DNA from: Podarcis tiliguerta
Lineage: Eukaryota
Direction: 5' to 3' (one strand)
DNA: 64,000 nucleotides
NCBI GenBank assembly: GCA_965153285.1
Contig: OZ229111.1
Below, piece after piece: positions 2,381-39,752 of the stretch. How positions within the stretch are numbered: position 1 is the stretch's first letter; every line of letters begins with the position of its first letter. The position numbers and the translations under genes are program-made. Below the pieces are notes generated by a model that saw only the letters and a list, made by a program, of their open reading frames with translations, had not been told where the DNA came from and did not search any database.

Positions 2381-2476
2381 TTAGACAGATGCAGCAGCTT
2401 TGTCAATAAACTGAGCCAGCTTGACATCTCGCTTCGTCAGTCCACCGCAGTCATGGGAAATGAGAGTTATCTGGAC
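2381..2476 (-). CDS. PCBD2: PCBD2 exon 4 (last coding exon)
   Basis: CAG acceptor, then [34 protein letters not shown]; matches the DCoH2 C-terminus including the SHD histidine. Confidence 0.97.
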
Positions 2477-4373: not shown

Positions 4374-4454
4374 CTTATTGTATACATTAAACCACTCAGG
4401 GTGGTGATTCATCTTCTCGGCCTGAAGAGCAACACGAGTCATAAAGCCAAAAGC
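4374..4454 (-). CDS. PCBD2: PCBD2 exon 3
   Basis: 81 nt, AG/GT flanked; [27 protein letters not shown] with the pterin carbinolamine dehydratase HHPEW motif. Confidence 0.97.
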
Positions 4455-4569
4455 CTGTGTTAAGAAGAAGAAAAATATTTAAAGGTATTATATGCTTTGC
4501 TGATGTTTCCCTCCTTATGGGAAAACTTTTTTAAAAAAACCACCCGCATTAAAAAAACAGTTGTAAAAA

Positions 4570-5000
4570 TAGCCTTGCTGGATCAGGCCAGTGGCCCATC
4601 TTGTCCAGGATCCTGTTCTCACAGTGGCCAACCAGATGCCAGTGGGAAACCCAAAGTTATGACCTGAGTGCAACAACATTCTTCTGTCCTACGGCTTCCA
4701 GCATACTGCCTCCGACTGTGGAGCCACTGTGGATGATAGGCACGGATAGCCTTATTCTCCATAAGTGTGTCTAATCTTCTTTTCAAGCTGTCCAAGTTGG
4801 TGACCATCACTGTCTCCTGCGGCAATGGGCCTGCACAGTTTAAATGTGCACTGAATGAAGAAATCATTTATTTTACCTGTCCTGAATCGTCACTGGATCT
4901 CCACAAGTTCTAGTCTTACAAGAGAGGGAGAAAATATTTTCACAATCTACTTTTCCCCATGCCGTGCATAATTTTATACACTCCTATCATGTCTCCTCCC
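4570..5000 (-). mobile_element. CR1 LINE 3' fragment
   Basis: Minus strand encodes GDMIGVYKIMHG, typical of the CR1 ORF2 C-terminus, followed by a CR1-type 3' UTR; boundaries approximate. Confidence 0.7.
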
Positions 5001-5624
5001 TTTTTCTTTTTTTTACATACATATGCCACTTTTAAGTTGTGCAAGAATAGTGGAAGGGAAGGGCAACTACAAAACAAGGAAGATGCTGAGAAAAGGCCTG
5101 CAATAGTTCCAATGCAAACAAAGCCCAGCATAACTTCACTTGAGGAATAGAAGCGTTAGCTGAGAATTCTCAACGGCCATTCAATATTTGACGGTGAGGT
5201 GGAAAAACATAGCAAGCCCATTCGTATAATAATCAAATCTCTCAAGTTACATCCAACATGAGTTATACTTAGAGTAAACCCATTGAAACGAATGGACATG
5301 ATTAGCTTAAGACCATTAATTTCAGTGAGTTTACACTGAGTATGACTAACACTGAACATAGGAAATATACTTTAGGGGTTGCATTCAAAGTGCTTCAAAT
5401 GGATTGTGTTGTAGATAATGAAATTCTTTTGCACATAGAACAACTTCTGCAAAAGCAATGGAACTTCGCCATCCAATCTGCTCTGGGGGATCCGCCCAAC
5501 CCTCTGGAGAATATTTGAGAATGGTTGGAGGGGGGCATGCAGGGGGAGGGAGGGGAAATTTCATTTTATGTGTGCAATGATTTGGTTTGATACATTACCT
5601 CAGCGATTCTTACAAAAGCTCTAT

Positions 5625-5659
5625 ATTACTATTACTACTACTACTACTACTACTACTAC
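5625..5659 (+). repeat. (TAC)n microsatellite
   Basis: Direct reading. Confidence 0.9.
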
Positions 5660-6959
5660 AGTTGTTGTTGGTGGAAGGGAAACTAAGACAATATTATTTG
5701 GCTTATTGACCACCTAGTGAGTTTGTGGCTGTTGTGAGATTTGAGTCAGATGCTTCCGCACACAAACTCTTATCTGCTAGGCTACACCAGCATGGCTTTG
5801 TGTGAATCTAACTCTGTAACTTGACTTCCAATACTGAAGTCAAAAGTACTACTAATAAACTAGTGTAAAGATTATTTTAAAATAAATTTATCTATGATGT
5901 ATTAAATATGTTCTTTAAAAATATATCTTTATAAATTTACCATCTAACCATAAATCTAACTGAAATCTCATTACAAAAGGGCCTGCATAGAAATATGTTC
6001 AATCCTACAGCAGCAATTTTGAATGCGCATATAATCAAGAAACAGCATAATGGTCGGTAATAGTTCCAGTATTTTTTTCCCTCCGCCACTGGTGACTGAA
6101 TGAAGTATGGCTTTGCAAACCATTTTGTCAGCAAGATGAATGCAGTCATTACAATCAGGGCAAATTATTCCAATGAAGTTTTTCATTTACAAATCACCAA
6201 ACTGTCAGCAATTGAAACGGTCAGGAGCGTTCCAATACGGGTTTCCTTGACAGTCTTGTTTCGTCGCAGCTTCAACCTAGCCATGTTTACCCGAATTTAA
6301 GCGCCACTCAGTTCTACAGGACGTGTTTTCCAGTAAACGTGAACAGAAGTGCAGCCTTTATTTCACTTGCACTAAATGGTAATGTTTTCAAAACTTTGTA
6401 AAAAGCAGTTTTGAAACCTTTGTGAATAATGTAAGTGCTCAACAGTATTTATGCAAAAGGCTTCCATAACTATGTTTAAATACCAACTGTACAAGTATTT
6501 TAATTTAATATTTGCTTTCTTCAACATATGGCTGGCTGTTGTATATGGTCAACTTCCTTTGTTTTTATAAGCAGGCCAGGGCAAGCAAATCAGAGGGTAA
6601 ATGTTAGTTGGTAGCCATCCCGTAGGGAATAATTCAGCCATTAGAATGCAGGCTAAACTTCACCGGACATAATCTAGGGAGAGTTAAGAACAGGCAAGTC
6701 TCATTCAAATAAAAAAAGTAATATTAATCAACTTGAAGTGCATTTGTAAGATGCTTCAAAGGTTACATGGCACATTTTAAGTAAATGATTTGTTCCTCTT
6801 GTAAGGACTGTTGATTTGCACATATGTAGTGTGGAATATTGGAGTCTTCTGATCAGGTTTACATGGACGTGCAAGAGGCACCAATCTTGGTTACAGTCCA
6901 TTTTAAACACGTACAGCCATCCCCCTATTGCATACATTTTGTACCATGAAAATGAGAAG

Positions 6960-7400
6960 CAGGTCTGTTGAAGTAATTTCAGCAGAGCAATCTCCATTAA
7001 GCCCCCTAAATACTTCCCTTGCTAATTAAATGAAATTAGAACTTTATTGTTTATGGATCACCTTTTGTATCTGTAGGCCTGTAACCTTCCTTTTATAAAA
7101 TACAATTGGCAGTGGAGGGAGAAGCTATTTAGGATTGATTATATATGAAAACATTATTACATAATCAGTTTGGACATTTCTTCACGTCTTGAAACATAAT
7201 CAGTAATTGGGTGTAATTGGTGATCAAGGAAACTATCTGGTGATCAATTAAAGTAATTACCAGATTCCGGCATCACGGCCAATCTTAATTTGAGCTGGAG
7301 TCTGCACTTCTTCAACTTTAATTTAAAAGAATGAATATTATTAAGCAGTCTGCGAGCCAAGATCATGGTCAAGCATACGTGATATGGCAGTAGTGTCAGA
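6960..7400. promoter_or_regulatory. Candidate developmental enhancer (homeodomain-site cluster) in PCBD2 intron 2
   Basis: Repeat-free; TTTATTG, TTTATGG, TTTTATAAAA and many TAATCA/TAATTG/TAATTA sites; conservation not checked. Confidence 0.5.
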
Positions 7401-10400
7401 TTCGTTTTGGTGAGTTTTGTTTGCCAGCAAGCCGCTTCATGTTGGAAAGTGTTTTGTTTATTCTGAAAAATACCACCATGGCCTTGACCTTCATTTCAGC
7501 ACCATATCTTTCTAGTTTACCACAATGGGAGTATTTTCATATCCAGATTTTTAAATCATTCATCAGTTTCAAAAAGCAACTCAGTGGAAAACAAAAATTA
7601 GCACTGTGATTCTTTTAATAATGAGAGCCACTTTAAGGCCAAGGTGTCTCCTTATCCCACTGATTGAAAGTGAAAAATAAACCCTGAAAAGGTTTGTTAG
7701 GGATGAAAGGCAATATAAAAATAGTTTAAAAAATAAATAAATAAGGAAGGAAGGAAGGAACCAAGCTAAAACTTCCTAAAAAATAGGTAAAATGAAGCCA
7801 AGGTAGAAACATTTGAGCAAACTACTCATACACAGCCCAAGCCTTGGGCCAGGAAGACTAGAAGTGTGCAGAATCATGCAGACTCATGTCATCCATGAGG
7901 TAAGTGGAAAAGCCATGAAAGGTCATTGGCTTCTACTGTGATCTGGCACTTGCTAGGATGAAGAAGAGGGTGTGGTTGTGTGTGTGTGTGTTTAATTTAT
8001 GAATTGTTTCCCAAAGCAATATACAATAGTCCAGGATTTCAACTCCACACCTTATCAGCAGAACTGGCCCAAAGGATAAAGAGGAGAGGGAGAAAAGTTC
8101 TTGTCTCTCTCAGTAAATGCACTCAATGCCTTTCTAAGGAAGCCCATATGAGATATGTTCAAATACAAATGTCTGATATGTCTGATTTTTCACAGAGAAT
8201 TTCTCATCATCCTCAACATGCTCCAACTAGGTTTTTTTAGTTGCAACTCCAGGAAACTATGACACATTACACAAAACCGTATTTTTTTATATAGCATATG
8301 CAGTGCACAAGCCCTAAACATCAGTAGACCTGATACCTGAATGGGGTTAGCATATTCATTCATTCATTTATATTTAGCAAATTGATGTGCACTGCTTACT
8401 AATGTAATTAAGTGGTGTAACAAACATTGCAGCCTACATTACAATTCCTCCCTCCTTCCCATATCACAACTGGGTGCCACTTCTTGATTCCTGAAGAGGG
8501 TTAGATACTTGTTTATCAGAAAGCAGCTTTGAGAAGGCTTTGTGCCTTGAAAAGTCAGATAAATAAATAGCCATTTCCAAAGGTTTCATCACACTCCAAC
8601 ATCATACTTCTGGTCATGATAACGACAGTGATTTGGCTAGAATTATTCTAAAGTGTTTTGTTTTTAAAGCACAAGCACAAAAATACAGACATTAAAATGT
8701 TCTGTCACATCTTTAAGAAGCAAAAAAAAAAAAAAAAAATTAAGTAAGTAGCTAGAAATGCATCCTTAAAAACCATAAGTAATAGTCTGCATTTACAAAA
8801 AGATGGCCTTGATAATCTAGTATTCCCAATAAAACTGAGCTGAAACTTCTCTGAAATGACGGCAAATTCCTCTGTTGTGGGCAAATACAGGTAGTTCCAT
8901 AAATGTGGGATCCTAAACATGTTGTGTTGAACTCAACAGGACTTGCTTTCTCATAATGAACATACTCTAAGAAAAACAATCTGGGGATGTCAGAAAACTG
9001 TTTTTATATGCGCCAGATATATGAAACATACAACATCCATATGCTGTGGCAATGTTTTTATGCTATCTGCATTTGATGACATCATTGTGATAAATCTGTC
9101 CAAACAGAAAAAAATGAAAGGACATTTTGTGCTACCTTCTTTGCACTCAAAATCACCAAATAGCTATCAGAGGAGGACACTGTGTCTGGGGTAATTTGCT
9201 ATTACTCTTAGATCAGGAAATAAAATTATTCCAATACTTTTTTAAACTAAATGGCTCCCAAGATGCTAGCAGAAAAACCTCTTCCCCTCATGGAAGGACT
9301 GCTTCCAACCTAACAGAAGACAAGTCATTCTGCACAAAATTGTCACAAAGTTTTTCTCAAGACCTTCTATAGCTCACTATATTTTATATAATACAGCCTA
9401 CACCTCCCCTATTTACCATGTTTCTCATACTGTAATGCAATTCACCAGGACACTGTGGTAGTATACTACAAGTCATACTCCTCTAGCTTGCAGAACAACT
9501 CTTATGCATTTTCTCCATCCACCTGGTTCTTGGGATCCAAGCCAATGATTTTGGAAGATGTTTATAAAACTTATTAAGCAATTTATCCAAGCAATGTAAA
9601 GTGCTATGGGTTGTTTGAATTAGTTTTACATGCAAACTCAGTTTGTTTCACTCCAAACAATGAGATAAAGCCGAGGTTTGTTATTGGCTTAACACTCATG
9701 GTTTATTTGGAGAAGGCAAATCATGAGCCCTGAATTACCATTACTTTGCTCCAGGTAAGAGAAATGAAGTGGATGTGATTTTCTATCTATGCACCAGCAC
9801 ACTTCCTCATTCATCTTTAGCCCTAGTTTAGGTGCAAGCAAGGGCAATATTGACACATAAGTCCACCACAGCCTTTCGTATTGCTCAGATACATTACCAA
9901 GCTTGATAAGCATTTCTTAACATGTAGGTAGATTACCCTTACAACTCTACAACTCTATGATTCTATGTTTGCTTTTATGTTGTAAAACGATTTCTGCAGC
10001 ACACATCCTATAACATTACTGCAGCAAACCATTATTCTGGTCCCATTTTGCAACACATATGCATACTATTCACTTCTAAGGATTCATACAATTTCTTTGG
10101 GAAATGGAACAAAATTACTGAAGGCCATGCTATGTTTAGAAAGCTACACACTTCCTAATTATCTTTTACTTAGCTTTGACTAGCTTCATAATATTCTCTT
10201 CTTGTGCCAATGACAATTACTATGTCCAACACACACAGCCAAAATCAATAAGACAGTTTTCTAAGTAACCGGGTATAAAATGGATCGGGAATAGATGTGT
10301 TATATAGGTCTCCATTCTACTTTCTACAAATAATTTATCAGCAAATCCAAGTTACGTGCTTCAATGCCACTCATCAACATTGCATGCCACTTCCCACATA

Positions 10401-13400
10401 TAGGAACTCCTTGCTGGATCAGAACAAGTGACCAGCTAAACCAACATTTTGTTCTGAATAGTGGCCAACCAAATATTTATCACAATCAGGGCATGAAGGC
10501 AACAGGCACCCCTAGAGTTGTCTATCCACAAACAGAGGATGTGAGTGGATTTCATGCAAACTGTACACTGTTTAATCCTTGGGTTTCCTTTTTCTGATAT
10601 CAGATCCATCATACCAAGAAAGTTTCATCACAATGAAGATGGATCCGAAATTTGTTTAAACGAACTGTGATATACTGACACTTCCTAAAAATTACACTCA
10701 GTTATGATTAATTCCTCTTTTCTCTGCAAATGACTCCTACTGGGTTACCTTGGTTTACATTTATATACACAGAGTTGATTCTGTATATAACATCATATTT
10801 GGAGAGACATGCTGCCTGCTTGCCCTAGTAACACTGAAGAAAGAGGAAAACTGCAATAGTCTGGACAACCAGCCTCCTCTAGGAGCCTACCACATCCTAG
10901 GAGGGGGTGGGGGGCATCAGGGCATTCATGAAGATAAAAATCCGAATTTTTGCACTTCTGAAAAATACAAAAGTACAGTTATAGCTGTATGGCATCAACG
11001 TGCAACTTTCACTTCATTTGCACACTAATTCATGTTGGGCTCCAAATTTAGATTCTTCCAGTAGGGCAAAAAACAAGGCATGCCACATTGGAACCTACAG
11101 AACTTCTGGTATCTGCCTCATCACAACTTATTCATATAAAACAGAGACTTTGTTCTTTTTGTGCTCAAGGGCAGGTTAGAGACCAGTGTTCAGATACTGA
11201 GCTCTACACCTCAACTCTGTATTTTTCTAAGAAAATTAGAAGAACTTTAAAGAAAATATATGGGGCTTTGCCCTTTTTACTAGGATTGTAGACTGCTCCA
11301 TAGCTTCCACACTTGTTTACAATTATGCTGGTGAAGAAACTAGCTAGCCAGCTCTATATCAAACATTTTGACAGCAAAAGCACAAACACTGATCTATTTT
11401 AAGTAGTTTGCCACTCTGTGTAATCTTGTAAAAGCCATTCTTGCCTTTGATATTTAGACTGTTTACACTAAGTATGTTATTCAAACAATGTTTTACATAT
11501 TAACAAATAATGTGAACAAAACTTCACGTTATAGCAAATTCTTTAACAACTGTCCTGCCAAAATGCTGTGATTTTCCTATAAAATTATTCCTATTTGTTG
11601 ATCTTACATTGGATGAAACATACTGTAACAATCTTCATAATTTATGTCCTGTTGGGACACCATGATTTAAAGTAACATAATACAGACCAGCACCACTGCT
11701 AATCTAAACCACCTGACCAGATAAACAACAGCTTCCCCCTCTCTCTTCACTGAGGGCATTTCTGTTTATTGTCATATGATTTGCTAATTTTCAGGACATG
11801 AAGAATAAATGCAGCCAAATCGAACTGTGGGTAAAAGTAATGGCCAGTTACACAGTATTTTCACATGCAGGTATTAGCACAACGTCAAGAGCTGCAAGAG
11901 TGGGTAGGAGATATATAGAGAAAAGATTAGTTTAAATCAGTACGCTTTAATTCTTAAGTAGTTTTGGAAGCTATGTATTTCCCAAATAAATAGAAGTAAA
12001 GACTAGGTCCAGCAGCGAGCAAAGGAGTGGGAGAAACTGGTCGGAAAACAGGTGGAAATGTATGATTTACACACCAATGATATTAAGTAGGTGTGCAAAT
12101 GAGCGGCCCTTACACTCCGTTACAGTAGTGAGGAACTAAGAGTTTAAGAATATTTTACCATTATGTTTTTTATTACTGTGTCCTATCTTAGAGGTTTTTT
12201 CAGGTCAAAAGGGAGGTTTTCGATTCTCTTATTGATAAAGAAATAACTAGCAACAATTAAGCCCACACTCTCCTTTAGTGTGACCTAATTTTGCATGGTC
12301 CAATTCCACAGGTGAACCCTGATTTCCACTGACTCAAGATGCATTCACTTCTTACATAACTATGCAAATGCCCAGCTTTGAGGTCTTTTACACAATCAAG
12401 CGGTGTATTAAATTTTGTGAAATAAATGAATAAAGTAAGTAACAATAAATAACATAAGTAACAATAAATTTACATTCAAAAGCAACTTGCAATTATAAAG
12501 CATGAACAAAATTCAGCTAAGAAGCAAGCTTGGATTCTATAGCCAGGATCCAATGAACCATGCAACAGAGCCCAGAGGGTCTCAAATTTGTTTCTCTCAA
12601 ACAACATTCCTTCCCCACACCCTGTCCAATGCCAAATGACAAACTGCCTTTGATCTGAAGGGAATTTCTAAAAAACCATTTTGATATAGCATGAAGGTCA
12701 GCTGTTTGGGAGGGTGGGATTGAAAGTTCCACGCACAAGCTTTTAAGTGAGCAGAAAGTAGCTATTTGGACCCTCGCCCACATTTCTGGCAAAGAGACTC
12801 AGAAATCATGCTAAACAGGTAGGAGCCTTGATCGTTAAACATACTGCACAGATGCTGCTTTATAAAGCCATACTTTGGGGGGGGGTTATATTTCTTCATA
12901 ACATAACACAAGTTTTTACAGCATTCTCCAGCTTCACAAAAAGGTTTGAAAGTGATGTTTTTCTTTTTATTGCTTTTTATTTGTAGTATTGTCAAAAAAA
13001 AAAAGTGTGTCGAAGGAAACAGCAAAGAAGAAAGGATGTAAGATGTTCCATGTGTTACCACAGGGTAAATATCACTTACCAGCTGACATCCCACTACCAT
13101 CTCCTTTCCCCGGGTTAGTTATCATGCTTTGTGCTCAACAAGCAGCGGGGTGGGAAAAAAGATGTCACTTGTATTAGGAAATATGCCTGTGCGGTCATGG
13201 AATGTTTTGTTCTTTGTTTTAAGTAAATGGACTTCCAGCACTCAGCCAAAATATTCTGTTATTCTATAAGCTCTAGCAGCAAAACACCTGCTAAAGCAAT
13301 CATTGGCTTTAAATAATAAAGTCTCTGTGTACAATTCAAAAGGACAGAAAGTTCATTTGTTCAAACACACTCAAAGTACTACCTTATTGTACCTCTCAAA

Positions 13401-13784
13401 GAAAACTAGACATTTCAGGCCCTTCTTAAAGTCGTTCTGATTAGAATATGTACTTTTAAACTGTCAGCTCACATGATTTTTATTCACCTGCGATTTCTGA
13501 ATATTACACAAACTTCACAGCTGTGTCAAGCAGAGCATGTCTGAAATTGTAAACTCAAGGAAAAGTGCAGTAAGATTATAAACCCAAGCATCTTGCTCAC
13601 AGAAATGCCCCTTCCCCACAAAGGAGGGCATGAAAGCACAATGGTGTATGGCAACAAAGATCCTAAAACAAGAAAGAAGTATCCACACAGAAATTCATGC
13701 GTTTATGAGCAAAGAAATCCAAAGAGGGTGGGAGAAGTACAGGATGTGTATGTTCCCCTTTTCCTTTGCTCTGCCAGAATTAGG

Positions 13785-13960
13785 ACAGTAACACAGGAAC
13801 CTTTCACCAAGCCAACCAATTGGTCCATCTAGCTCAATATTGTCTACAGCGATAGGCAGTGGCTGCAAGGTTTCAAACAAGGGACATTCACAGTCCAACC
13901 TGGAGACTTTCTCCATGCAAAATAGATTATTTGCCTCTGAGTTACGGCCCTTCCCCAGAA
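13785..13960 (-). mobile_element. Degenerate squamate tRNA-related SINE (Squam3-like)
   Basis: Reverse-complement similarity to 18766-18928 and 44790-44958; boundaries approximate. Confidence 0.55.
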
Positions 13961-14622
13961 GAGTGGGAGATGTGTAGGGTACAATTCTCCTCTTTCTTTT
14001 TTGTCCTGTTCAAGCTTAAAAGAAAAATGGGAGGGGGATTTTCCTAACCTTTATTGTAAAGTGAGGGCAGGCGCAGCTCCTACTCTATTCAGGGGTCAAC
14101 CAACACACTGGCAGGCCTCCTTTTGGCCCACATTGATGGAGGAGCACCAACTGCAGAACTTTCTCCATCCTCACAGAGCAGGCACAGGGAGTCAGATTCT
14201 CCTCTCCAAGGCCTCTGTCCCTGCCCTTGGAGAAGGGAGATCCCAAAAACCCTAGGCCCCCTGGAACACCCTCCGAGGTTAAACATATTTCCTTACATAG
14301 AAGCCTCCTGTCTGCTGCCACTGCCGCCAGACAATTTTGGGAGAGTAGAAGGGAGTGTTAGGGCAGGGCTCTGGAGCCCACAGTGGGAGGTTCCAAGCAG
14401 CTCACAGGTGGCCTCACTGAGCTCCTAATGGCAATTCTGGGTCTCTGAAAGAAACAAAGCAAGGCCAATTTCAAATCGAAAGGAGTTCTCCCATTATTAA
14501 ATAAATATTTTTTTGAAAAATTAGTAGCACTGACAGCATATGCAAAACATGCCTTCTTGAAGGTAAGAGCCCAATGGCTGGTCTCCTACTGGTTTACAGC
14601 TCACAAATATCACAAAGTAATA

Positions 14623-14864
14623 CAGTGGTACCTCGGGTTACATATGCTTCAGGTTACATACGCTTCAGGTTACAGACTCCGCTAACCCAGAAATAGTGCT
14701 TCAGGTTAAGAACTTTGCTTCAGGATAAGAACAGAAATTGTGCTCCGGCGGCGCGGCAGCAGCAGGAGATCCCATTAGCTAAAGTGGTGCTTCAGGTTAA
14801 GAACAGTTTCAGGTTAAGTACGGACCTCCGGAACGAATTAAGTACTTAACCCGAGGTACCACTG
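14623..14864 (+). mobile_element. Tc1/mariner-type MITE, copy 1 (242 bp)
   Basis: Perfect 18-bp TIRs CAGTGGTACCTCGGGTTA, TA flanks, internal CTTCAGGTTA repeats. Confidence 0.92.
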
Positions 14865-16654
14865 TATTTTCTTTTTACTTAAAATCAAGGACCAAAAAAA
14901 TATAAAAAAATATGCATGGCTAAAAATTGCCTTGGAAATCATTACTCTAAACACTAATAAATAAATGACCATTATCCAACCAATTTATTCATCTACTTTC
15001 CAACATAAATCAACTTCAATGAAACAGCATTATCATTTATACTTTTAAAACTAATTTGAAATTGACAGTAATATTATATAAAGCAACAGTTAGTGTCAGA
15101 CTTGAAGCCTACCTCAACTTTCGATCTGGTTCAGAGGCAGCCTGAGGAGTACAAGACTACAAGGGAGAACTGTAGGACACCTGCCGGTATGGACCCCCCT
15201 CATACACAAGCCCATTCTGGCCCAGATCCTCCAGACAATCCATTCAGAATTACATAGAAGAACCAGCCTAGATGGCAGCATCCCCTGCTGAGAAGTATGG
15301 AGGTGTGTCACTCCTGTACCAGAGATAGCATAAATCTGGCACACTGGCCCTTGGGAGCTGCATGTAAGTGTTCATGGCAATTAGCACTAGATTCATTTGA
15401 GAGTATAGAATCCTCCAGACTCTCTGTGCCAAATGCAAATCCCAGAGACTGTTTTGTGAACAGTGTTTTTAAAGTCTGTGCACAAATGACAATTTTCCAT
15501 ATTTTATGTCTTAATATAAAGGAGACTTTGGATCCAAGCTAAAATAAGGAAGAAGGAAAAGTGAAAATTATACCTAGCCAGCTTTCATTATGCAGTTTCC
15601 TTTTTACAAGAGAGAGGTTTAAATTGTTTAATGGAAATTTTTTATACACTGAACATACCGAGGCCTATCTTCTGCTTTTAGCATTTAAAACAATGTGTTA
15701 TGTGTGTGCGTTAGAAAAGGCATGCCGGATTATAAAACTGTTATTAAGGGTTAGGTAAAATGTCTGAATTATACCAGAAGAATGGCAACGAAGAAGCCTG
15801 CTTTGATTTTATTATGGTTGCAAATTTCAACGGGTTTGATTAGTCAACTAAATCATTAGACTATAATCCTATACTCACTTATCTTGAAGTAAGTTCAATG
15901 GGACTTACTTCTGTGTAGACATGGCTAGAATTGCACTGCTAATCAAGTTCCCTGCCCCTGAATTGTGACCCTTAAAAAGTACCATGTACTCCACCATGTT
16001 GCAGAATTTCTTCTTCTTTGTCCTTTCTGATGAAAAGGAAAGATGACAGTCTCTATCTAAAGCCAGCAGTTACTTTGAACTTGCTTGTACTTCACACTTA
16101 AGAGAAACTGCCTTTTTTTTTTTTTTTAGGAATCTCAAAAAGACATCTTCCTTGAGATTCTGCAACATACATGCTTACTGAAATGCAATAAATTGATAGA
16201 TAAATCCTTGATATACACACACAAAATGGTATATGTACTATAAATCCAGAAGATGGTCCCTTGCATGAAGAATCTACTCTAATTCACTTCTTCTACTGCC
16301 ATCTTCATCAAGAAAATAAAACCAAATCACAAGAAAATAATCCCTACCTTTCCTTTTACAATTCAAAATACTGTATTACAAGAAACTTTCGTCAATCAAC
16401 AATGTCAGAGTTTGCTAAACACAAAAATGAAGGTAATGTAGGTTCACCAACACCGTGTAAGATCTAGATGCAACAATGAAACTCTGAATTGAAATTTTCA
16501 GTTTCTAAAGGGGGTGGAATCACCTGTACATCTAGAATTTTAGACACATTCATGCTACTTTAATGCACTGACCAGTTAACTTTCTTGGCCCAGCCAGAAC
16601 AAAAATTCCAAAACAGTGCAAGCAGAGGGAAAAACTAAAAATAGAGCCCCAGCA

Positions 16655-17050
16655 AGTAAGGCTGATTTACAGCTTTATGAAAAGACAAAATGAAAAACTG
16701 TACTTGATCCCAACTGATAAACTGTGGAGCTGCCAGTGGTTTTTCAGAGCAGATGTAACATTTTAGCAAATGTGATTGTTTGTGAAAGAAATAATTCTGA
16801 TCAAAAACGAAATTGCAGCCAGCACAAGCTCTGCACTTTGTCATTGTAATCCACTCTGACAGGAAGCAGTAAGTGGAGATTCCTACTGTGAAAGGAGCAG
16901 ATGTGAAAGGTCAGCCTTGGCCTGGAACTTCAAAACCGTTAACGTGTAAAACAGTGTGCATTAAAGCCTGAAACAGCTAACCACTGGATTAACGGATGTC
17001 CGCTAAGTGGGTTTGATGTTCTTTTGGCAAGTAATGGTTAATTTTTAAAA
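16655..17050. promoter_or_regulatory. Candidate developmental enhancer in PCBD2 intron 2
   Basis: TGATTTAC, TTTATGA, 2x CAGATG, TAATCC, TGACAG, GGATTA and TTTGAT in repeat-free DNA; conservation not checked. Confidence 0.5.
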
Positions 17051-18765
17051 TAGGTATAATTGTAGTTTTTCTCTCCCACCCCCTTTATACCTTTTTACCA
17101 GCCAGAGTCGATTTTAATTACAGAGTATAATTTTTTTTAATGCTTTTAGAAAGAACGAAAAAGAACACACAATTTTTATGAACTTGTTCACGGCCGCAAT
17201 TTCAAAGTAGGTGAAGGCTGTTAAAGAGATTTGGATAGATGTAACCTCTGCACTAAATATTACATCCAAGACACCAAATATTTATCCAAAAGTGTTCATG
17301 AAATCTACAAGACAAAATGTTTATTAACATTTTAAAAATGAATGTCCAGCTGAGATCTTGTTGGAAGACGGAGGCGATGCAAAGCTAAAGACTTGCACAA
17401 CTGAAACAAAGCAGCTGAAAACAATACATGGTACAGATTGAATGAATAGTGATGGGTTTTTCAGACATGGCAGAACTCCAAATTTTAGTTAATCAAGCCA
17501 TCTTACAAGTATTCGGCAGCTCAAATTAAGAATAAATAGCTGCCTTCCTTCTGCAGTTGACCCAACCATATGTTCCTCTCCTTTTGAACGTAATGAGGAA
17601 TCATGAATTCACAAAGCTAGTAACTATGTGAAACTTCTGGATTTGGTACAGCTAAACTTGTGGCCCTGTTATACACTGAAAGATGGGCTATAAAATAAAT
17701 GTCTATGTTAAAACCAGAACATTTAATTCATTATCTATAAATACATCTCTTTTCATCCTTTCAAATTAGCTGACAAAGACAATTGCCACTATGCCTTGAG
17801 ATATCTAGTGGTGTTTTTATCCTCTTTCTTTCAAACACGCATAAAGTTTCAAAATCAGCAGGAGACACGAGGTGAGGGCTGCTATTCAGTTAATTTTTGT
17901 TTCTTACATTTACAACACATCTTTTATCCAAGAACGTAAATGCATTATATATAGTTGTCCTCTCCATTTTATCCTCACACCAAACCTATCAGGCTATGAG
18001 AGAATTACCGGCACAAATTAACCCAATAAGCTTCATGGTAGAGTCAGGATTTAAAACTGGGACTCCCCAGTCCTAGTGCAACACTCCAACTACACTGCTT
18101 CTTAAAAGCGCCAGGATTTTTTTTTTAAAAAAAAACTTTTAAAAAGTGTAAAGTCTCTCTGAGAAGCTAAGACAGTCACACAGTTGTTTGGATTACGGCC
18201 AGTGTTTTCACACATACTTAAGATTCACTGTAGAATAATTATTATAGCATATAATAGTTAATAAATCTATACTACTTTCAAAAGATTTGTTTTCATAAGA
18301 GCCAAACTGTATGGAACTTCCTGGCTCTATTTATTTTGGATAGGCCAGGATTAACATACCTAAACCTGTATTGCAATAATCACAGTAAATTCTAGAAGAG
18401 CATCTCCATTCAAGAGAAAGAGAGAGAATATACACGCACACACATGTTGTGCAGACTGTTGGGCTTGGACATGAAAACCATAGGTTCAAATCCCTATGCA
18501 GGCTTGAAGCTTTGGGGCAAGTCACTATCTCTCAACGTAATCTAACATACAGGTCTTTTATGAGTGCAAGCATCACTCTGAGGTTCTTGGAGGAAGTGAT
18601 GGGTAAATTATTTCACAGAAGAATAACAGAATCATAGTGTTGATTATTCACTTGTAACAAGTTAAATAACCTCACAACACCACTTAAAGAAAAGCCACAG
18701 CTAAATCTTACCGATAATAATATGCACCACGCCAGAAGTGTGGGGAAGGGCAACCGCATCTACCT

Positions 18766-18928
18766 TAGTGGCAGAAAGTTCCAGGTTCGGTTCCTGACAT
18801 CTCCAGGTAGGGCTGGGAATACCTCCTACCTGAAGTTCTGGGAAAGTCACTGCCAGACAGTGTAGGCAACACTGAACTAGATTGGCCAGTGGTCTGACTT
18901 AGTATAAGGCAGCTTCCTATATTCCTAT
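18766..18928 (+). mobile_element. Squamate tRNA-related SINE (Squam3-like)
   Basis: B-box-like GGTTCGGTTCC followed by the body CATCTCCAGGTAGGGCTGGGAA...GGCAGCTTCCTAT shared with other copies in the window. Confidence 0.65.
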
Positions 18929-21900
18929 GTGCAGCTAGAATCCCATTTTTATCAGCACAGCACACTAGCTCTTTTGGGCAGTTCATAGAAGGCAGACTAT
19001 AATAGCCCCAAGCCACTGTTTCTCAATTTCTATCCTTCATAGTTCAACATGGCATTTTCTGTGCCCAATCAAATTGCCAGTCTCATTCTAAAAACACAGT
19101 CAAACGGTCCCCAAAGACATCTGCAATGGTTTAATTATTAGCAATAGCTGTGCCTCCTGATACTGACCATTTATTATTTGGGCATCACAATAGCTAAACA
19201 TGAACAAAATAATACTTGGCATTTGTGCAGAATTCCGCCCCGCAACCAAGCACTCACAGGACTGACAACTGCTCCCTACCAAAACAGAGGTGAGCTCTGA
19301 TTCCTGTGTGAGCCATCACTGCCTTTATGACGCAATGGAATACAAAGGCAACAACCTAATTGGATGTCTTCTGATAAATTGTACCCAAAAAAATTGGTTT
19401 ACCAAAGGACCAGCCCCATAGTAAGAAGGCAGAATGAATGAAGGTAGTTAAGAGAGCCCAACTTCCTAAAGTTGATAAACGTGGTGAAAAATAATATATG
19501 GCAACAGTGCTAATTTCTCTTCCATAAGCATGTTGCCGTTTACAATGGCACTGTATTTTGAAATGAAATCTTGAGAAAGTATGCAACTTTGGAATCTGTG
19601 ATTGGTGGAACAACTACAGGCAGAAAGAATGGGACTCACATGGGGTAGTTTCACACCTGCCCTCTCACTCAGAAGTGGTTTGCTGCAATAGCTGCATTAG
19701 CGCTAAAGCTCTTATCTGCTGTACTACTTGCACTGCCAACACCAACTCTGTTCATTCTACTGCATTCAGACCAACTGAGAGGAAGTAGGTTTCTGCTGGT
19801 GCAAGCACACCCTTATGAAAATAGAGCTAACAATGTAGCGTGAAAGTTCGATTGTTTAAATTGGGGGGGGGGGGAGCTGATATTGTTTTTTAAACTAACT
19901 GCACATAGGGATGAATGTTGCCTTGACCTTCGGTCTCTTAACAGACTCGAGCATTTTTAGTGATGCTTTTGACTACCATTGACACACTAACTGCTGTGAA
20001 GTTAAGCATTTGAATGCAGACAACTGCAACAACCTGTGGAACTTCATAAATTCTCCTATTTACAAGGGAAAACAATGTCAAATTTCATAATAATTTAAAA
20101 AAAAACCCACGTTGATCAGGTTTACCAGTTTCCTAGTCTTTCTCTCAAGACAGAAGAAATGATAAATGGTTAATTTTAAAGTTCACTTAATCATCACCCA
20201 GAAAATTAGCTTTTGGCACTAGCAGCATGTTAAAATTACGAATGGATGGAAAGCTTCCAGGTCTCACAGCTAAACCTTTGCCCTGCAATCTTTTGAGTCT
20301 GATACAAGAGTGTTATTTACTCACCCAACGCGAAGTTATAAACCAAAAGAGAATCTGGTCTCGTCAGAACTACTTGTTTTTCATATATATATATATATAT
20401 ATATATGCTTAGAATTGTATTACCAGTCTACTCTTGCACTAAGGTTTTGATACTTTTGCACCTGTGAATTGATATCTTTGAGTCCTGGAAATTTTACCAC
20501 CAGCTTTTCATAAAAGAAATAACCTCAAACAGGTACAGAAACCAGAAGTTCAATATTCAACCACCATTTTCAAATACAGAGGTTTTTCTCCGCTTTCAAA
20601 CACTGCTCGTAAATAACCTTGATTTATAGCAAATCGGCTATTTTATCCCTGTATACAGGGAGGCTACCCATCAACCTAACTACCCAAAGAATTACTGTTA
20701 TAAACTTTGCAGGTGCGCAAATCACAGCATATGGCAGAGGACTCAGGATAATGGGAAATGAGGCGGCTCAGGAAAAAACATATGAAAAACACAGGCCCAA
20801 CGTAGGTGGATATAAAACTCATTCAAAAGGTAATCAAGTGCAACAGTATAAAATGGGAGCAACTAAGACAATGAATCCACTGAAAGCCATGAAAATGAAC
20901 TTGGCTTTTGAATGGTCAACCTATCAGATCTTCAGTGCTCTTCTTTAGAAAAGAAGCACATCCGACACAAGCTACACCCAAATGCAATCACTGGTGTGAC
21001 TCCAATAAGATTCACGCAAAAGGGCTAAATTTGTCACAAATGCTTTTGTTTCCGATCCTAATAGAGCCAAGTTGCATTACTCTGACCTCCATTTAACAAA
21101 TCAACTTAATGGGTGCTGGGAGTGCCGTAAAAACCTTAACAGTGGAGTGATTTTTAAAACTTTAAAAAATATAGTTATGAAGCAAAATGTTAGGAGAACC
21201 CCTTCAATACTGGAAATCAAATTAAATCTAGACATTTCTAACAGTCTTGACAGATATAATCCTGGTTACCATGTAAATTTATGGTAAGCTGCTGTGATAT
21301 TAGCCACAGGTGCTACTTTTAATATATGGGCCGCATCTGGCTGGGAATAAAGTTTCTCAGAGGACTAGAAATGACCTCACTATCAGACAATGGAGGGGAG
21401 GGAAACACAAGGCCACTGTGGCATATAAAAAGCAAGAGATGTGGCCCACAACTGAATATTTGACATAAAATTCATTTTAAGTTTGCAGGTTGTAGGCTAA
21501 AAGATATTATGTTTTCAGTACATAAAAAGGCGTAGACATTTTTCAGTCAAAGAGCCAAAGGATTAAGTATTGCAAGACAGCTATGAAATATTCGGACTAT
21601 GCCCATAAAAACAACTTGACTCGACTTTGATCAACAGAGAAGACAAAGGGATGTGACGAGAAAGTTACAGAGTGGCGGGGTAGGGGAAGAATGTATCCAA
21701 ATTCAAGTAAGTTCCCAAGGACGTAATTGTTTTATACAGCAAGCTGACCTACATTTAAGGAATAGCTGACTCCAGGAAGCTGCCAATTGATTAAAAACCT
21801 ATGCCAAAGAATTCTAGTACCACAGACTAAGAGAAGTATTCCCTTCATGGTACTTAATTAAGTAGAGATAAAAATAAATAAACAAAACCCAGCACCTTAT

Positions 21901-22469
21901 GCCAAGAAGCTATCACCACATATGAAGAATACCATGACTAGAGACCAGTCCATCTAGGTCTCCCCTAGTACTCCGTTTATAAGCAGAGCTGGTTGTCCCT
22001 CAGCTGAAAAGTTCCAAGTGGAGAGAATTAAATTCTTCAACTTGCGCTCTGTGCTCCGAAGTATTCACATTTTATAAAGCATGCATAACTGCAATAGCTG
22101 TGGTTTTGCAGAATTCAAAGGCCAAGATCAAAGAGCCCCAAGAACATAAAGAGGGGTTGCCAACTTGTGGCTGTGTTGACACTGAATGTCGTCATGGTGG
22201 GGAGCTGTCTCCTGACTTTCAGAAGCAGCTTTGGCAAGAGAGGTTCCAAGGGTGGGGATAAGGGGGCCTAAAAAGCCCTGGTGCACACACAGAATGCCAT
22301 GCGCAGTCTGCCAAAGCAATTCTATTTTGGTGGTAGTTAGCAAGGGAACAGGTGCTAGCAGCTATTAACAAGGAAATCTTACAAAGAAGTAAGTCCCACT
22401 GTGTTCAATGGAGCCTATTTCCAGCTAAGTACGAATGGCATTGTAGACTATGTGTAGCAATGAGCTATC

Positions 22470-23370
22470 TATTATTACTACTATGTAATGACCTACCCTT
22501 CACCAGCGGGTCCCCAGGGCAGGTGACAACAAATTACAAATCAGTATTAAAAACAGCTAAAACAAATTGCAGTCATAAGGTGGGTGCTGAAAACACGTCT
22601 CGGATGGTAAAGGCCAGAATAAAGAGGTGCGTGTTCAGCATTCAATGAAAGCTGTACAGTGAAGACACCAGACCCACGTCTGTGGGGAGGGAATTGCACA
22701 ACTCACAGGCTGCCACAAAGAATGCCTTCCCCTGAGTCAACACCACTCAAAACTTAAAAGTGTGATGGAACTATTAAGAGGGTCCCCTCTGCTGATCCTA
22801 ACACCCAAGTGGGTCTGCAGGACAGGAGATGGTCTCTAATATTTGGGCCCTAAGTAATTTAGAGCTTTAAAGACTAGTGTGAGCACCTTAAATTGGAACC
22901 AGAAATGAACTGGCAGCCACTGTAGAACAAGGCTTTTATGGGTTCTAAAGGCAACCCCTGCCAATAATCTGGCTACGGCATTTCAAAAGAGCTGAAGTTT
23001 CTGAGTTGTCTTCAAGGGCAGCCTAATGTGGAGCACATTGCAATAATCCAGTTCGGAAGTTACCAGAGCATGGGGCAATGTGGCCAAGTCATCTCTATCC
23101 AAAAGGAGCCAGGTCTGGTGAACTAACCGTTGCTGCAAATAGGTACTCCTAGCTACCAAGGCCACCTGGATCTCAAGTGACAATATGGGATCCAGGAGTA
23201 TGGACCTGATCCTTCCAGGAGAATGCAACTCTGCCTGAAACAAGCAATCTACCCACTTCCTTGAGAACTTGGAACACACAACAACTGTGTCTTTTCAAGG
23301 TTCAGCTTCAATTTATTGGCCCATATCAAGCCCATTACTGTCTCCAAATACCTGTCTAGCACCTCAGCCA
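22470..23370 (-). mobile_element. L2/CR1-clade LINE ORF2 3' fragment (decayed)
   Basis: Minus-strand translation HALVTSELDYCNVLHIRLPLKTTQKLQL matches the post-RT region of L2-type ORF2; frameshifted; boundaries approximate. Confidence 0.75.
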
Positions 23371-23573
23371 CCTGACCACTGGTTTTCAATTAGTGGGCTG
23401 GGAGGGACCCATTATTGGGTTGTGGTTTAATCCAAGAGGGGTCTGCAACAGCAGCACTACCACCATACAACTGTTTTAAGAAAATTTAAGAAATAGGCCC
23501 CCAAGTGCATGTTGGAGTTAAACGTGAGCCCCAGGGCTGAAGAGATTGGAGACAACTAATCTAGAGCCCTGAA

Positions 23574-23663
23574 CATAGCTGTCAACTTTTCCCTTTTCTT
23601 GTGAGGAATCCTATTCAGAATAAGGGAATTTCCCTAGAAAAAAGGGAAACGTTAACAGCTATG
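23574..23663. mobile_element. hAT-type MITE (90 bp)
   Basis: 24-bp TIRs CATAGCTGT(C/T)AAC(T/G)TTTCCCTTTT; perfect 8-bp TSD GCCCTGAA. Confidence 0.9.
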
Positions 23664-25921
23664 GCCCTGAATCTTTCCCCCCAAAAAACTCAGCCGAAAG
23701 CCCTGTTGGGTTTTTGAGCCATCACCAGCATAAGTACCCCCCCAAAACATAGAGTTACTATAAGGACTCAACTCTTGCAAATAATGCTAGATGGGATGGG
23801 GATGGGTAGAAAAAGATCCAAACCAGGAAGTCTGTCAATTAACAAACAAATCAACACATATCAGCCATCTTATGCAGCATATTAAATTCTACTTTTTGAG
23901 TGTGAGACTGTGGCTTTCCCCTTTGCATTCTTTGGTTCAGTGGTGCAAACCAAGATAAATCCCTATCCAACATCCTTCAGGTCCCAAACTGAGAGACATG
24001 CTGGGAGCTTGACAACCACAACAAGTGTCTATACAATCTGCTGCTGTGTTCACAAGGCAATCTGCTGCTGCGTCCCAAGACAACTGCCTTCTGTGTGGAA
24101 TCTCTCCTAACAACATTCAGTTCTAGCCTGGAAAGGGTCATCATGCTTTCCTTTTTTCTTACTCCACCCACTCAACAGCTAATGGAAGCTACTGTGTGGG
24201 GTGAAGCTTTTCAGTGATACATTACTGAGAGGATTTGGAGACAATTCCCTCTCCTTCAATTGTTGCACTGCACACAAATAGCAGGAGTCTTCCCCGCACC
24301 CCATGTGTGATGTGTCTCTACAGCAACTCCATGCATGGAAACCTATTTCTACGTGCAGATTGCTGTTGCTGTATTGAAACATTCATCTGCATTATCTCAA
24401 ACATTTCTCCAAAACTATGAGAATTAGATACTATCAATCCATGCTAAATAAGAAAATATTAATTATAAATCTCAGTTAGAGAAGAGTATCATTTAATGGG
24501 CCCAAGGACACCTACAAATGTGCAAAAAAATACCCTAATAGGATACAGGCAACTGAGAGAAACCTGTATGTTTTCAGAAATTACTAAACTTACTGGAGTT
24601 AAGGAATTGACAGTTAATAAAACTTCAGTACCAAAACTACTATTTAGTTTGCTCTGCATACTGCTCAAGCCTTTATACAAATATATGACAAGAAATCTTA
24701 TAAAGGGATATCCACTATGATTCTTATGGTTCAGGATTGTGAAATACAGTCACTGCAGATGAAGTCGAGAACCCTGAAATCTTCTCCAGGAAACTCAATT
24801 CAGCTCAGCGGGATTCCTGAAACATATTTCTTTGTACAACTGAATTGGCAACCTGCCTGCAGCCTACTTCCATTAGATTATTCATGTATCTAACAAGACT
24901 GAAACAGAACCTAGTCATGCATCTTAAAAATCAGGCTAGAAGTCTTCAAACAGGAATACCACCCTGTTAAAACATATTAACTACAGTCCTGACACTCACA
25001 GGGTTTACTTTCTCACATCAGTTATAGGACGCAAAAAAGTGGTACCAAAAGCTAAATGAAGTCTTTAACTTGAAGCCTTTATTTAATAAACATAGTAGTT
25101 TTTTGTAAACTGCCTTCAAGTATCCCAGCCAGTCCTGCGTATCTTCAACATGTGCCCCTTTTTCTAAATATCCTTCTCTCTTCTATTGCCGTTTGGCCAA
25201 AATAAACAGGAAACTTGGCTGACAATACGGGAGAAAGGAAGAAACTCCGTAACTACTTCCAAACTCAAGGAACGCCGTTTCCTCTACCCTTTCAACTGTA
25301 ATCATATTCTATGCTACCTACAAAACACACACACACACACACACAAAACCCAGAGAAGAATCTTTCCAGTCAAACACATGATTTTGAAGGGTATTCCTTT
25401 TGTGATGAAATCCAGCCTTGTGATGATGGCCCTTTTCAAGAGACAGACTGGGATGCAATCAGAAACAAACAAGAGGTGATGCAAAACAGAGATGTCTCAT
25501 CTCCAAACATCTGGTAAACTGACCTTCTCTGGTCTAGATGTTTGCAAGACTTTTGTTATGCACGCTGAGAGGAAATAGGGTTAATGAATGCTGCACTGCA
25601 GAATTCTGATACATAATGAATTAGGTTTTAATTGATAACTGCATGTGTTTTGTACTTTTAAAAAAATCCACAAGAGATGACAAATTCAAGTTATAGCTGT
25701 AATTTTCAGCGAAGCTTACTGAACTGCCTACATATTAAAACAGGAAAGTAACAGATAGCCGTTTCTCCCAAATCCCCAATTTTTCTGTTCCTTTTTAAAA
25801 AAAGAAAAAATATAGACCAAAAAAGGAAGTGTAAAGAGCTTCTTTCTGTTTGGATGTATATAATCAGCTCTTCAACAGCCATATTTCCTGGCTCAAATAA
25901 AGAGCTAGCTTTCCTCTAGAG

Positions 25922-26129
25922 CAGGGTTCACAACCTTTTTTTGCCATCCCCACCTAAGCATCTCTAAAATCCTGATGCCACCCCCTTATTATTCAAAAAG
26001 TGAACTCCCATTCACATGGAAGAAGCCTAAAAGGCCATTAACTGTTAATAACTCATTCTCGAATTGCCCCCTTTAAAAATCAAATTGCCCCCCTGTGGGG
26101 GGGGGGGTGCCCCGCGTTGGGAACCACAG
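25922..26129. mobile_element. hAT/Charlie-type non-autonomous element
   Basis: Imperfect TIRs CAGGGTTCACAAC / CTGTGGTTCCCAAC; 8-bp TSD CTCTAGAG/CTATAGAG. Confidence 0.75.
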
Positions 26130-27069
26130 CTATAGAGACTGGTTTTTCACTGTGGGCTGCGCATAAATACAGAACTCTTTTGGGTAGTAGTTGGAGACCA
26201 AGTTATGAATCAAGAACTCCCTGGTTTGAATCTTATGTCACCCATGAACTTCAGCAAGCTACTCTCTCACAGCCTCAGTCCTGGGTTGTATGGATTAAAA
26301 ATGGACAACTAAGAGTGCTATATAAATATTAAGAAACATATATTATTATGGTAAGATTTTACTATCAGATTTATATGTACCTGCAAGAATCCTATTCACG
26401 TTGATCATTCCTCTCTCCACAGATGAAAAGGATATGGTCACATGAGCAAGTTTAAGATAAAAGACCATGTCTGCATTGTTCAGACACAACATCAAAGGCA
26501 ATATAATGGTAAGTATAATCTAAAAGCAATGAAAGGAAAGGAAAAAATGGAGTTCCTATTCCGCCTTTTTATTCTTCACCTATGGTCCGAGCATAAGCCA
26601 ATAGGTCTTACGTATTTAAAAGCATTTTTATGTCTTCTTCCTTCAGCCCGAAAGGCTCCCTGAGTAGCTTTTGTAAGATAAAGAAAAACCAGATAGTCCC
26701 TGCCTATAGGCTGACTTTCTAAAAGACATGACACAAAGGAAAAAAGGAGGGGGAGGGAAGATGTTATACTATATTTACAACTTGGTAGAAGATATAGAGA
26801 TTGTCAGAATTCTAAAGCATGGTATTTTAGAACAATTCCGTAAATCCATAACTTGACAGCTTGTCAGTGAAAACTTTTACCAAGTAAACTACCTCTGACC
26901 CATATTTACCCTGATTTGCAAAGAATCTGTCCATTCTTCCTCTGCTGGATGTAATACACAAAATAATAGATATTCCTATGGGCTTACAAAACTTTGGCAA
27001 TAAGGCATGTTAACATCTGTTGATATACAGTCTTCAAAACCTGGAATGAATAAAGAGTTTTCTAAGCAT

Positions 27070-27235
27070 CATATGTCATTTGTGTTATCTGTGAAAGCAA
27101 TAAAAATTCAATGAACAGATCAATCAACTCAATATCATGTGCAACAAATAAATCTGAAATGCCTTTTATGTCATTTCAACTTGTCAGCTTTTTACACACC
27201 TGATTTTATGCCATCTGCAAAGGGCAAAGTGAAGC
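27070..27235. promoter_or_regulatory. Candidate limb-type enhancer in PCBD2 intron 2
   Basis: CAATAAAA, ATCAATCA, 3x TGTCA, 2x TTTTATG, CACACCT and CATCTG within 150 bp. Confidence 0.5.
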
Positions 27236-28180
27236 TCACTGAGGAAATTATACTTCTTGGCTGTCTGACTTTTGTTAAATAGTTGTATTATGTTCTGTAA
27301 ACTGAAGATTTACTGACTTGAGGAAGAATATGGTAGTTTACATCCTGACCTTAAACTATACTGACTGATACATAGCTGAGTTTTAGGCATAGGTTGTGTT
27401 AGATCTATTAGATCTGCTCTGTGTGTGTGTGTGCACAAACCCAAGCTTTGGGAAGTTTCTATAAATTAAAAGCATTGGGGTACTAGTAAATATTATCAAC
27501 AGCATGGAACTGAAATTGTAAAGATTTATATCTATCTCCAAAAGCAAAAAAAAAAAAAAAAGATCATTTTAACCCACATTAAGTCAAAAGAATTATATGT
27601 CACAAGTTGCTTCCTAGTACCATTTCAGTGCCTAACTAAACATGATGGTGTGCTAGAATATGGGTCATACTAAATGGGTACACAGCAGTGAGAGTAATTT
27701 AAATCAGAGAACTGGTGGGCAGAATGGGGTTACTTAATCTCCCCTTGTTCAAACTAATCCTTCTGAAACCTCCTCACCAAGCATGCTTTTCTGCTGGTGA
27801 AGCTTTCTTTCCAGAATCCTACTAGCACAGGAAAAAAGCAGCAGGAAGTATGCAAATTCTATCTGAAAATCAGACAACATGAATTAAAGTAAAGCTAAGT
27901 TTAATTAGCTTCAAATCAGGTGTGGCATCATTAAATATCCAGCGCTTCAAATGGCCTGCCCCAGTCATTCAAGTATAGAATGGCTCATCATTGTAACAGG
28001 GATTTAACACTAAAGAACTGAAATGATATATATGGAACCCAGATCAGGATTTCGCCAATACTTTTAAAGTGATAATATTTGTGTGAATAGGTTGGCCTTT
28101 GAAGAACAGGTTCCGGTAGCTAAGAAGTAAAAACATAAGCTAATTGCATTTCCTTAAAATAGCAATAATGAAGTATTTAC

Positions 28181-28312
28181 CTGGTTGAAAGTTTTGAAGA
28201 TGAATTCTTTGTATATGGCATCCCTTTCAGTCAGCTCGGACCATCCTGAAGCTTTGAGCTCGTGTAAAACTTGGTTCCTTTCTTCCGTAGTCAACCAGTG
28301 AAGCTGTGAAGA
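28181..28312 (-). CDS. PCBD2: PCBD2 exon 2
   Basis: 132 nt, TAG acceptor and GTAAAT donor; [44 protein letters not shown]. Confidence 0.97.
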
Positions 28313-34199: not shown

Positions 34200-34725
34200 C
34201 TCCCTCGCTGGGTCGGAAAGTGGGGCGCTGGAAAGCCCAAGGAAGCACTCTCAATGCTTGCCGGAGGAATCCCACTATGAATGAATGCACGGGCGGATAT
34301 AAACCAAAAGGTCCCCGGGACCCACTTTGCGCGGGAGGGGAGGCCGAGAAGTCGGGGGTGGGGTAAGAAACGAAACCCAACGCCGCCCAAGTGACGCTGT
34401 TGCCGGGGTGGGGAGAGTCCCTCCGAGGTCCCCTTCCCTTCTTCGCCGCCCAACCTCTCACCATAGCGGAGCACTCGCTTCTGCCACTGCCTCGTCCTGC
34501 CACGGACGTCAGTCCCGCTCGCAGCCACCTCAGGCCGGCCCAGGCGCCGCCTCGCATGGCTCCGGCGTGGCTTCTCCGCCCGCCCACCTGGCACCTCCCA
34601 CGGGGAAGCGCATGCGCCGCCCACTCCTCCCACCACTCCCCGGCTGAGGGAGAGGCGGGATGGAAGGCAAACCTCCTGCGCGAAAGGCCGTCGCTCTCCC
34701 CGCCCACTTTACTTTCATTATGCCC
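34200..34725 (-). promoter_or_regulatory. PCBD2 CpG-island promoter with NRF1 palindrome (GCGCATGCGC, 34608-34617) and GC boxes
   Basis: High GC and CpG around exon 1; CCGCCC boxes; perfect NRF1 core. Confidence 0.8.
34462..34557 (-). CDS. PCBD2: PCBD2 exon 1 (leader peptide plus second Met)
   Basis: GCCATG start; MRGGAWAGLRWLRAGLTSVAGRGSGRSECSAM then GTGAG donor; phase 0 joins exon 2; total CDS 405 nt = 134 aa + stop. Confidence 0.88.
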
Positions 34726-39588: not shown

Positions 39589-39752
39589 CTGCTGTGCTGA
39601 GAGGCATCCAATGCCAAGAAATGAAGAGTTGGGAATGCTCGGGGCAAAGAATTAAAATGAGGAGCCAGATTGGCAGAGAAACGGCACCAAGGAGTATAAA
39701 ACAGGACTAAGGTACAGTCACTGCCATTTGGATTTAAGAACTCCATTAAATC
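39589..39752 (-). CDS. TXNDC15: TXNDC15 exon 3 (thioredoxin active-site region)
   Basis: 164 nt; [54 protein letters not shown]; atypical CRFS motif. Confidence 0.97.

What the first reader, a model, noticed from the sequence alone, without database searches (positions are those of the whole stretch)
4455..28180. PCBD2 intron 2 as a probable host of PITX1 long-range enhancers (lizard PelB orthologue)
Seen: a 23.7-kb intron in a 134-aa enzyme gene, containing several repeat-free blocks rich in developmental TF motifs (listed separately). Known: in mammals the order is C5orf24-TXNDC15-PCBD2-CATSPER3-PITX1, and as I recall the mouse Pitx1 hindlimb enhancer PelB maps to the large Pcbd2 intron. 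Inference: PCBD2 is a bystander gene in a PITX1 regulatory block, with PITX1 beyond coordinate 1. A limbed-lizard copy would be the natural reference for limb-reduced squamates.
Basis: partly seen in the sequence, partly recalled or inferred. Interest (0 to 1): 0.7.

Follow-up and report, generated by a model that had tools for sequence, protein, structure and literature searches.

The report
Lizard intron at known Pitx1 enhancer
This is the large second intron of a lizard PCBD2 gene, about 70-90 kb downstream of the hindlimb gene PITX1, and it likely holds the lizard copy of PelB, a hindlimb enhancer already described in mice, sticklebacks and anole lizards, so it is ordinary rather than new.

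Summary
The gene model is confirmed. A lacertid PCBD2 (134 aa, minus strand) has a 23,726-bp GT-AG intron 2 at exactly 4455-28180. The gene order is also confirmed: CATSPER3 and then PITX1 lie beyond coordinate 1, with PITX1 facing PCBD2 and its stop codon 69-92 kb from the intron. The two exonic primers used there to sequence stickleback PelB map to the exons flanking this intron.

The sequence-level claim is weaker. The intron is moderately repeat-poor (lowest tenth of 60 tiles), but its motif density does not exceed GC-matched background. I obtained no cross-species alignment of its blocks, so which block is PelB remains untested.

The idea is already in print for lizards: the 2018 paper reports Anolis hindlimb H3K27ac, an Anolis alignment and partial PelB deletion in advanced snakes. 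Deleting PelB in mouse lowers Pitx1 by only about 15%.

Verdict: a probable orthologue of a known enhancer host, of low novelty. One side observation: a 560-bp element in the intron has a single diverged copy elsewhere in the genome.

The parts
34462..34557 (-). PCBD2 coding exon 1, in a GC-rich stretch (likely the promoter island)
28181..28312 (-). PCBD2 exon 2; best match of stickleback PelB-sequencing primer pcbd_exon3.R (18 of 25; next best 17)
4455..28180 (-). PCBD2 intron 2, 23,726 bp, GT-AG; likely host of the PelB orthologue
   Evidence: position
4374..4454 (-). PCBD2 exon 3; best match of stickleback primer pcbd_exon2.F (22 of 25; next best 17)
2381..2476 (-). PCBD2 exon 4, coding part with stop codon
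4564..5005 (.). high-copy interspersed repeat fragments
5955..6454 (.). single-copy non-coding block that keeps CpG (o/e 0.65, 12 CpG; intron average 0.23); candidate regulatory block, weak evidence
   Evidence: 2 of 338 repeat-free background windows reach 0.65, but about 47 windows of the intron were scanned
6755..7454 (.). windows with the highest homeodomain-site count in the intron; candidate only
   Evidence: p about 0.03 before correction, not above the background maxima
8426..8990 (+). non-coding element with one detectable second copy (67% identity) at G000:C4:18323863-18324427; likely an old low-copy mobile remnant
14612..14879 (.). young high-copy short interspersed repeat (copies 93-97% alike)
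22470..23373 (.). old interspersed repeat fragment (about 70% to many copies)
25906..26143 (.). interspersed repeat (81-86% to many copies)
39591..39779 (-). thioredoxin-domain exon of the upstream neighbour, read as TXNDC15 from recalled synteny
   Evidence: PF00085, E 1.4e-4, just under the curated cut-off
53218..53787 (-). DUF5568 coding exon, read as C5orf24 (name recalled)
   Evidence: E 1.4e-85

Best explanation
This is intron 2 of lacertid PCBD2, 69-92 kb downstream of the PITX1 stop codon in the order PCBD2-CATSPER3-PITX1, and it likely carries the orthologue of the Pitx1 enhancer PelB. Shown here: the gene model, the gene order, the orientation and the distance. Shown in print for other species: PelB lies in a large Pcbd2 intron, loops to the Pitx1 promoter in mouse hindlimb but not forelimb, drives posterior hindlimb expression, supplies about 15% of Pitx1 mRNA, and is H3K27ac-marked in Anolis hindlimb. 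Inferred: one or two single-copy blocks in this intron would do the same in lacertid embryos, adding a modest hindlimb (and possibly jaw) input to PITX1 across CATSPER3, with PCBD2 mostly a host. Which blocks they are was not determined.
For: Exons and intron. PITX1 homeodomain exon at C2:65.646 Mb and last exon ending at 65,655,833 on the + strand. That exon is 95% identical to Varanus PITX1, against at most 67% to proteins named PITX2 and at most 63% to PITX3. CATSPER3 exons lie between (3 of 122 frames hit Ion_trans; best PDB hit CATSPER3 at E 3e-17 and 4e-18). PelB's location, Capture-C contact, lizard H3K27ac and conservation from fish to mammals (PMC6269122); contact also reported in PMC8668926 and bioRxiv 2023.02.06.527380 (passages). 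Both exonic stickleback primers have their best match in the two exons flanking this intron. The intron is in the lowest tenth for repeat content.
Against: No block was aligned to mouse, Anolis or stickleback PelB, so orthology rests on position and on the published conservation. The four non-coding stickleback primers tested match nothing above background. Motif density is ordinary. The CpG signal at 5955-6454 is weak after allowing for about 47 windows. One of the two anchoring primers matches at only 18 of 25, one base above the next best site. The mouse paper says 'a large intron' without a number. No chromatin or expression data for this species were seen.
Confidence: 0.85

Rival explanations
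1. The intron is the right one, but PelB has decayed or been partly deleted in lacertids, as reported for advanced snakes; the intron would then be ordinary long, AT-rich sequence.
For: No motif enrichment; only modest repeat depletion; partial deletion has happened in other squamates; the mouse phenotype is mild, so loss is tolerable.
Against: PelB is reported conserved from fish to mammals, in Anolis and in python. Lacertids have full hindlimbs (general knowledge). Kilobase-long single-copy stretches remain in the intron.
Confidence: 0.06
2. The elements are present but are shared or pleiotropic: they also act on PCBD2 or on other PITX1 domains such as the jaw, so 'bystander gene with a hindlimb enhancer' is too narrow.
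For: Pcbd2 was at 0.83-0.97 of wild type in four qRT-PCR runs of PelB-null limbs (p 0.09-0.71), close to Pitx1's 0.80-0.86. Stickleback PelB drives strong jaw expression, and jaw length falls in compound mutants.
Against: The Pcbd2 change was not significant, and Capture-C links the region to the Pitx1 promoter in hindlimb only. This refines the best explanation rather than replacing it.
Confidence: 0.09

Closest known systems
PelB enhancer of Pitx1 (mouse, stickleback, Anolis; Thompson et al. 2018, PMC6269122)
   Same: Large Pcbd2 intron downstream of PITX1; the same flanking exons as the stickleback sequencing primers; convergent orientation; tens of kb from PITX1.
   Different: The species (a lacertid is not in the paper's list of 17 genomes). 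Sequence identity and activity were not tested here.
Genomic regulatory block with a bystander gene (concept recalled, e.g. ZRS in LMBR1 for SHH)
   Same: A small housekeeping enzyme gene with a long intron next to a developmental transcription factor, and conserved gene order.
   Different: PelB gives only about 15% of expression, whereas ZRS is essential (recalled). A dense array of conserved elements was not demonstrated here.
Upstream Pitx1 enhancers Pen (hs1473), PDE/Pit, RA4
   Same: Same target gene in the published mouse landscape.
   Different: They lie 5' of PITX1, outside this window; Pen is pan-limb and stronger (35-50% loss on deletion).

Membership tests
PCBD2 gene | Pterin-4a-carbinolamine dehydratase domain, closest to named PCBD2 proteins | tested here: met
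PelB orthologue | Lies downstream of PITX1, in the order PCBD2-CATSPER3-PITX1 | tested here: met
PelB orthologue | Lies in the Pcbd2 intron that holds PelB in other species | tested here: met
   Stickleback exonic primers match exons 2 and 3 (18 of 25 and 22 of 25); this is the gene's largest intron (23.7 kb against 6.1 and 1.9 kb). Indirect.
PelB orthologue | Sequence alignable to mouse PelBcon1/con2 or the 530-bp stickleback core | not testable with these tools
   No vertebrate genome collection is held, and the paper gives the sequences only as figures. Four non-coding primers gave no match above background, which is uninformative at the 51% mouse-fish identity reported.
PelB orthologue | Blocks under purifying selection among lizards | tested here: inconclusive
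   Contigs of four related genomes gave no usable cover over the candidate blocks.
PelB orthologue | Hindlimb-biased open or acetylated chromatin, contact with the PITX1 promoter, reporter activity | not testable with these tools
   Needs embryos; reported for mouse and (H3K27ac only) Anolis in PMC6269122.
Developmental enhancer cluster by motif content | TF-motif density above matched background | tested here: not met
   the consensus motifs were recalled, and this test has low power for real enhancers

The most novel reading that the evidence does not exclude
The 560-bp element at 8426-8990, whose only detectable sister lies in what is likely the first intron of a BAR-domain gene on another chromosome, is an ancient mobile remnant kept by selection and recruited as a squamate-specific module of the PITX1 downstream landscape. 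This lacertid intron would then be the reference for asking whether it, or PelB itself, decayed in amphisbaenians, the limb-reduced sister group of lacertids (relationship recalled), including Bipes, which has forelimbs only.
Probability: 0.06. Interest if true: 0.55.

Novelty: already known. Interest (0 to 1): 0.15.

Why it matters
It matters little as a discovery, because the enhancer, its host intron, its lizard chromatin mark and its partial loss in snakes were published in 2018. The remaining value is practical. This is an intact locus with verified gene order in a lacertid, the nearest limbed relatives of amphisbaenians (recalled). My searches listed no paper that examines PelB in lacertids, amphisbaenians or legless lizards, but the library lacks most subscription papers and Infante 2015 was not held. 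The small effect of PelB in mouse makes it an unlikely main cause of squamate limb loss, as PMC9280442 argues.

Tried and rejected
1. Footprinting with related lizards. Contigs of four genomes, about 1.4-6% different in the listed pieces, were laid on 4300-7190. None of the listed substitutions falls in exon 3, while eight are listed in the 40 bases beside it (42 rows not shown). No run covers 6143-6821, and cover is almost nil from 5949 on. The tool states that such a hole proves nothing, so I draw no conclusion.
2. No RNA holder was listed for 4300-14000; this is no evidence on expression.
3. Non-coding stickleback primers: best matches 14-17 of 20-25 bases, scattered.
4. Motif enrichment was rejected.
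5. A structured RNA in the intron: no Rfam match at gathering score in 7300-64000 and none to E 1 in 8300-9100. The part left of 7300 was not scanned.
6. Tandem arrays in 7300-28400: five short rows, nothing notable.
7. A paralogous enhancer near PITX2 or PITX3: 5880-7190 has only its own match. The single two-copy element maps to C4, not to the PITX2-like (C9) or PITX3-like (C5) loci (paralogue names recalled from their C-termini).
8. Loss of CATSPER3 was considered after a recalled pore-motif scan and 150 frames found nothing. It was rejected when searches found its exons. The Ion_trans genome search did not list them.
9. Earlier notes of this scan: none. The protein atlas did not answer.

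Full report
Gene model. Exons 2-4 match consecutive parts of Pfam PF01329. Exon 2 is 100% identical to PCBD2 of four lacertids. The spliced model matches three of them at 131-132 of 134 residues, and the fourth did not line up without gaps. The animal is therefore a lacertid-type lizard.

Gene order. The window is G000:C2:65720001-65784000. An OAR domain lies 64 kb to the left on the + strand, in an exon ending at 65,655,833, with a homeodomain exon at about 65,646,360. Among 70 hits its identity is 95% to Varanus PITX1, at most 67% to proteins named PITX2 and at most 63% to PITX3. PITX1 thus faces PCBD2, and its stop codon is 68.6-92.3 kb from the intron. Three minus-strand frames between the two genes hit Ion_trans (3 of 122 frames; 0 of 150). 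The two frames tested have CATSPER3 as best PDB match. To the right lie a thioredoxin-domain exon and a DUF5568 exon, read as TXNDC15 and C5orf24 from recalled synteny. The mammalian order is preserved.

What is in print. Of Thompson et al. 2018 (PMC6269122) I read parts 1-5 of 8 (abstract to methods) and parts 1 and 4 of supplementary file 1. The figures and figure supplements, which hold the VISTA plots and the stickleback sequence, were not visible and bear directly on block identity. PelB is a 9,466-bp region in a large Pcbd2 intron. It contacts the Pitx1 promoter in hindlimb, is H3K27ac-enriched in mouse and lizard hindlimbs, and drives hindlimb lacZ; its deletion leaves about 85% of Pitx1 mRNA. 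Anolis, python, boa and five other snakes were aligned, and advanced snakes lack part of it. I saw only passages of PMC8668926, PMC9280442, PMC8601893, PMC6226452 and bioRxiv 2023.02.06.527380. They repeat the location and the contact, and PMC9280442 judges PelB too weak to explain squamate limb loss alone. PMC2572835 was seen as a listing only, and Infante 2015 was not held.

Is it the same intron? The paper lists two exonic primers for sequencing stickleback PelB. In the first 36 kb of the window their best ungapped matches are in exon 3 (22 of 25; next best 17) and exon 2 (18 of 25; next best 17). That fits fish PelB lying between the exons that flank this intron. The test is indirect and one margin is thin. 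Four non-coding primers matched nothing above background.

Does the intron look special by itself? Only mildly. Repeat-like hits cover 4.9% of it against a median of 17% in 60 tiles, and 4-6 of 60 tiles are as low. More old repeats appear in whole-genome searches. Ten recalled TF motifs are no denser than in 17 GC-matched tiles, and the best windows are matched by 7 and 9 of 17 tiles. One single-copy block, 5955-6454, keeps CpG at o/e 0.65, reached by 2 of 338 repeat-free background windows. With about 47 windows scanned, roughly 0.3 such windows are expected by chance, so it is a candidate only. No cross-species conservation map of the intron was obtained, so which blocks are PelBcon1 and PelBcon2 remains open.

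Mechanism. Most likely (0.85) the intron carries the lacertid PelB, which would loop across CATSPER3 to the PITX1 promoter in hindlimb buds and add a modest share of expression. Position is shown here, function is shown in other species, and activity in this lizard is inferred. The rivals are decay in lacertids (0.06) and a shared or pleiotropic role (0.09). The latter has some footing in the paper's own table, where Pcbd2 was at 0.83-0.97 of wild type without reaching significance.

Side observation. Bases 8426-8990 match one other place, C4:18323863-18324427, at 67% (E 4.5e-35). Neither copy has a stop-free frame over 83 codons, and the window's copy has no Rfam match. The C4 copy lies about 6.5 kb behind a frame matching the start of a BAR domain (1 of 150 frames hit), likely a first coding exon. 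The tool warns that its DNA search gives lower bounds on copy number. An old low-copy mobile remnant is the plain reading; exaptation is not excluded.

Verdict. Interest 0.15.

Noticed in passing
window 8426-8990 and G000:C4:18323863-18324427 (L082): A non-coding element of about 560 bp with two detectable copies, 67% alike; the second lies about 6.5 kb behind a BAR-domain (PF16746) frame. Origin unexplained.
   Followed up: partly
window 5955-6454: Single-copy AT-rich block that keeps 12 CpG (o/e 0.65 against 0.23 for the intron); the best sequence-only candidate for a constrained element, weak after correction.
   Followed up: partly
L019:3777-4049, L019:6204-6515, L020:4082-4477 (minus strand): CATSPER3 exons between PCBD2 and PITX1; the full gene was not modelled, so whether it is intact was not checked.
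   Followed up: partly
L019:4947-5990 (minus strand): A 348-codon open frame with an endonuclease domain (PF03372, PF14529) inside a CATSPER3 intron, likely a LINE fragment.
   Followed up: no
L011-L014 (G000:C2:65.620-65.656 Mb): About 36 kb in which most 2-kb bins have CpG o/e 0.5-0.8, over and upstream of PITX1, dropping to mostly 0.1-0.35 just after its last exon, as expected for a developmental gene's hypomethylated domain.
   Followed up: no
G000:C10:54363729-54363935 and C5:67680344-67680448: Two further PF01329 matches: the C10 one spans profile positions 24-91 without an intron and may be a retrocopy; the C5 one is probably PCBD1.
   Followed up: no
window 63811-63860: A near-perfect inverted repeat read by eye (…cagaaggatcatgg… / …ccatgatccttctg…) at the window's right end; probably a small transposon remnant.
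   Followed up: no
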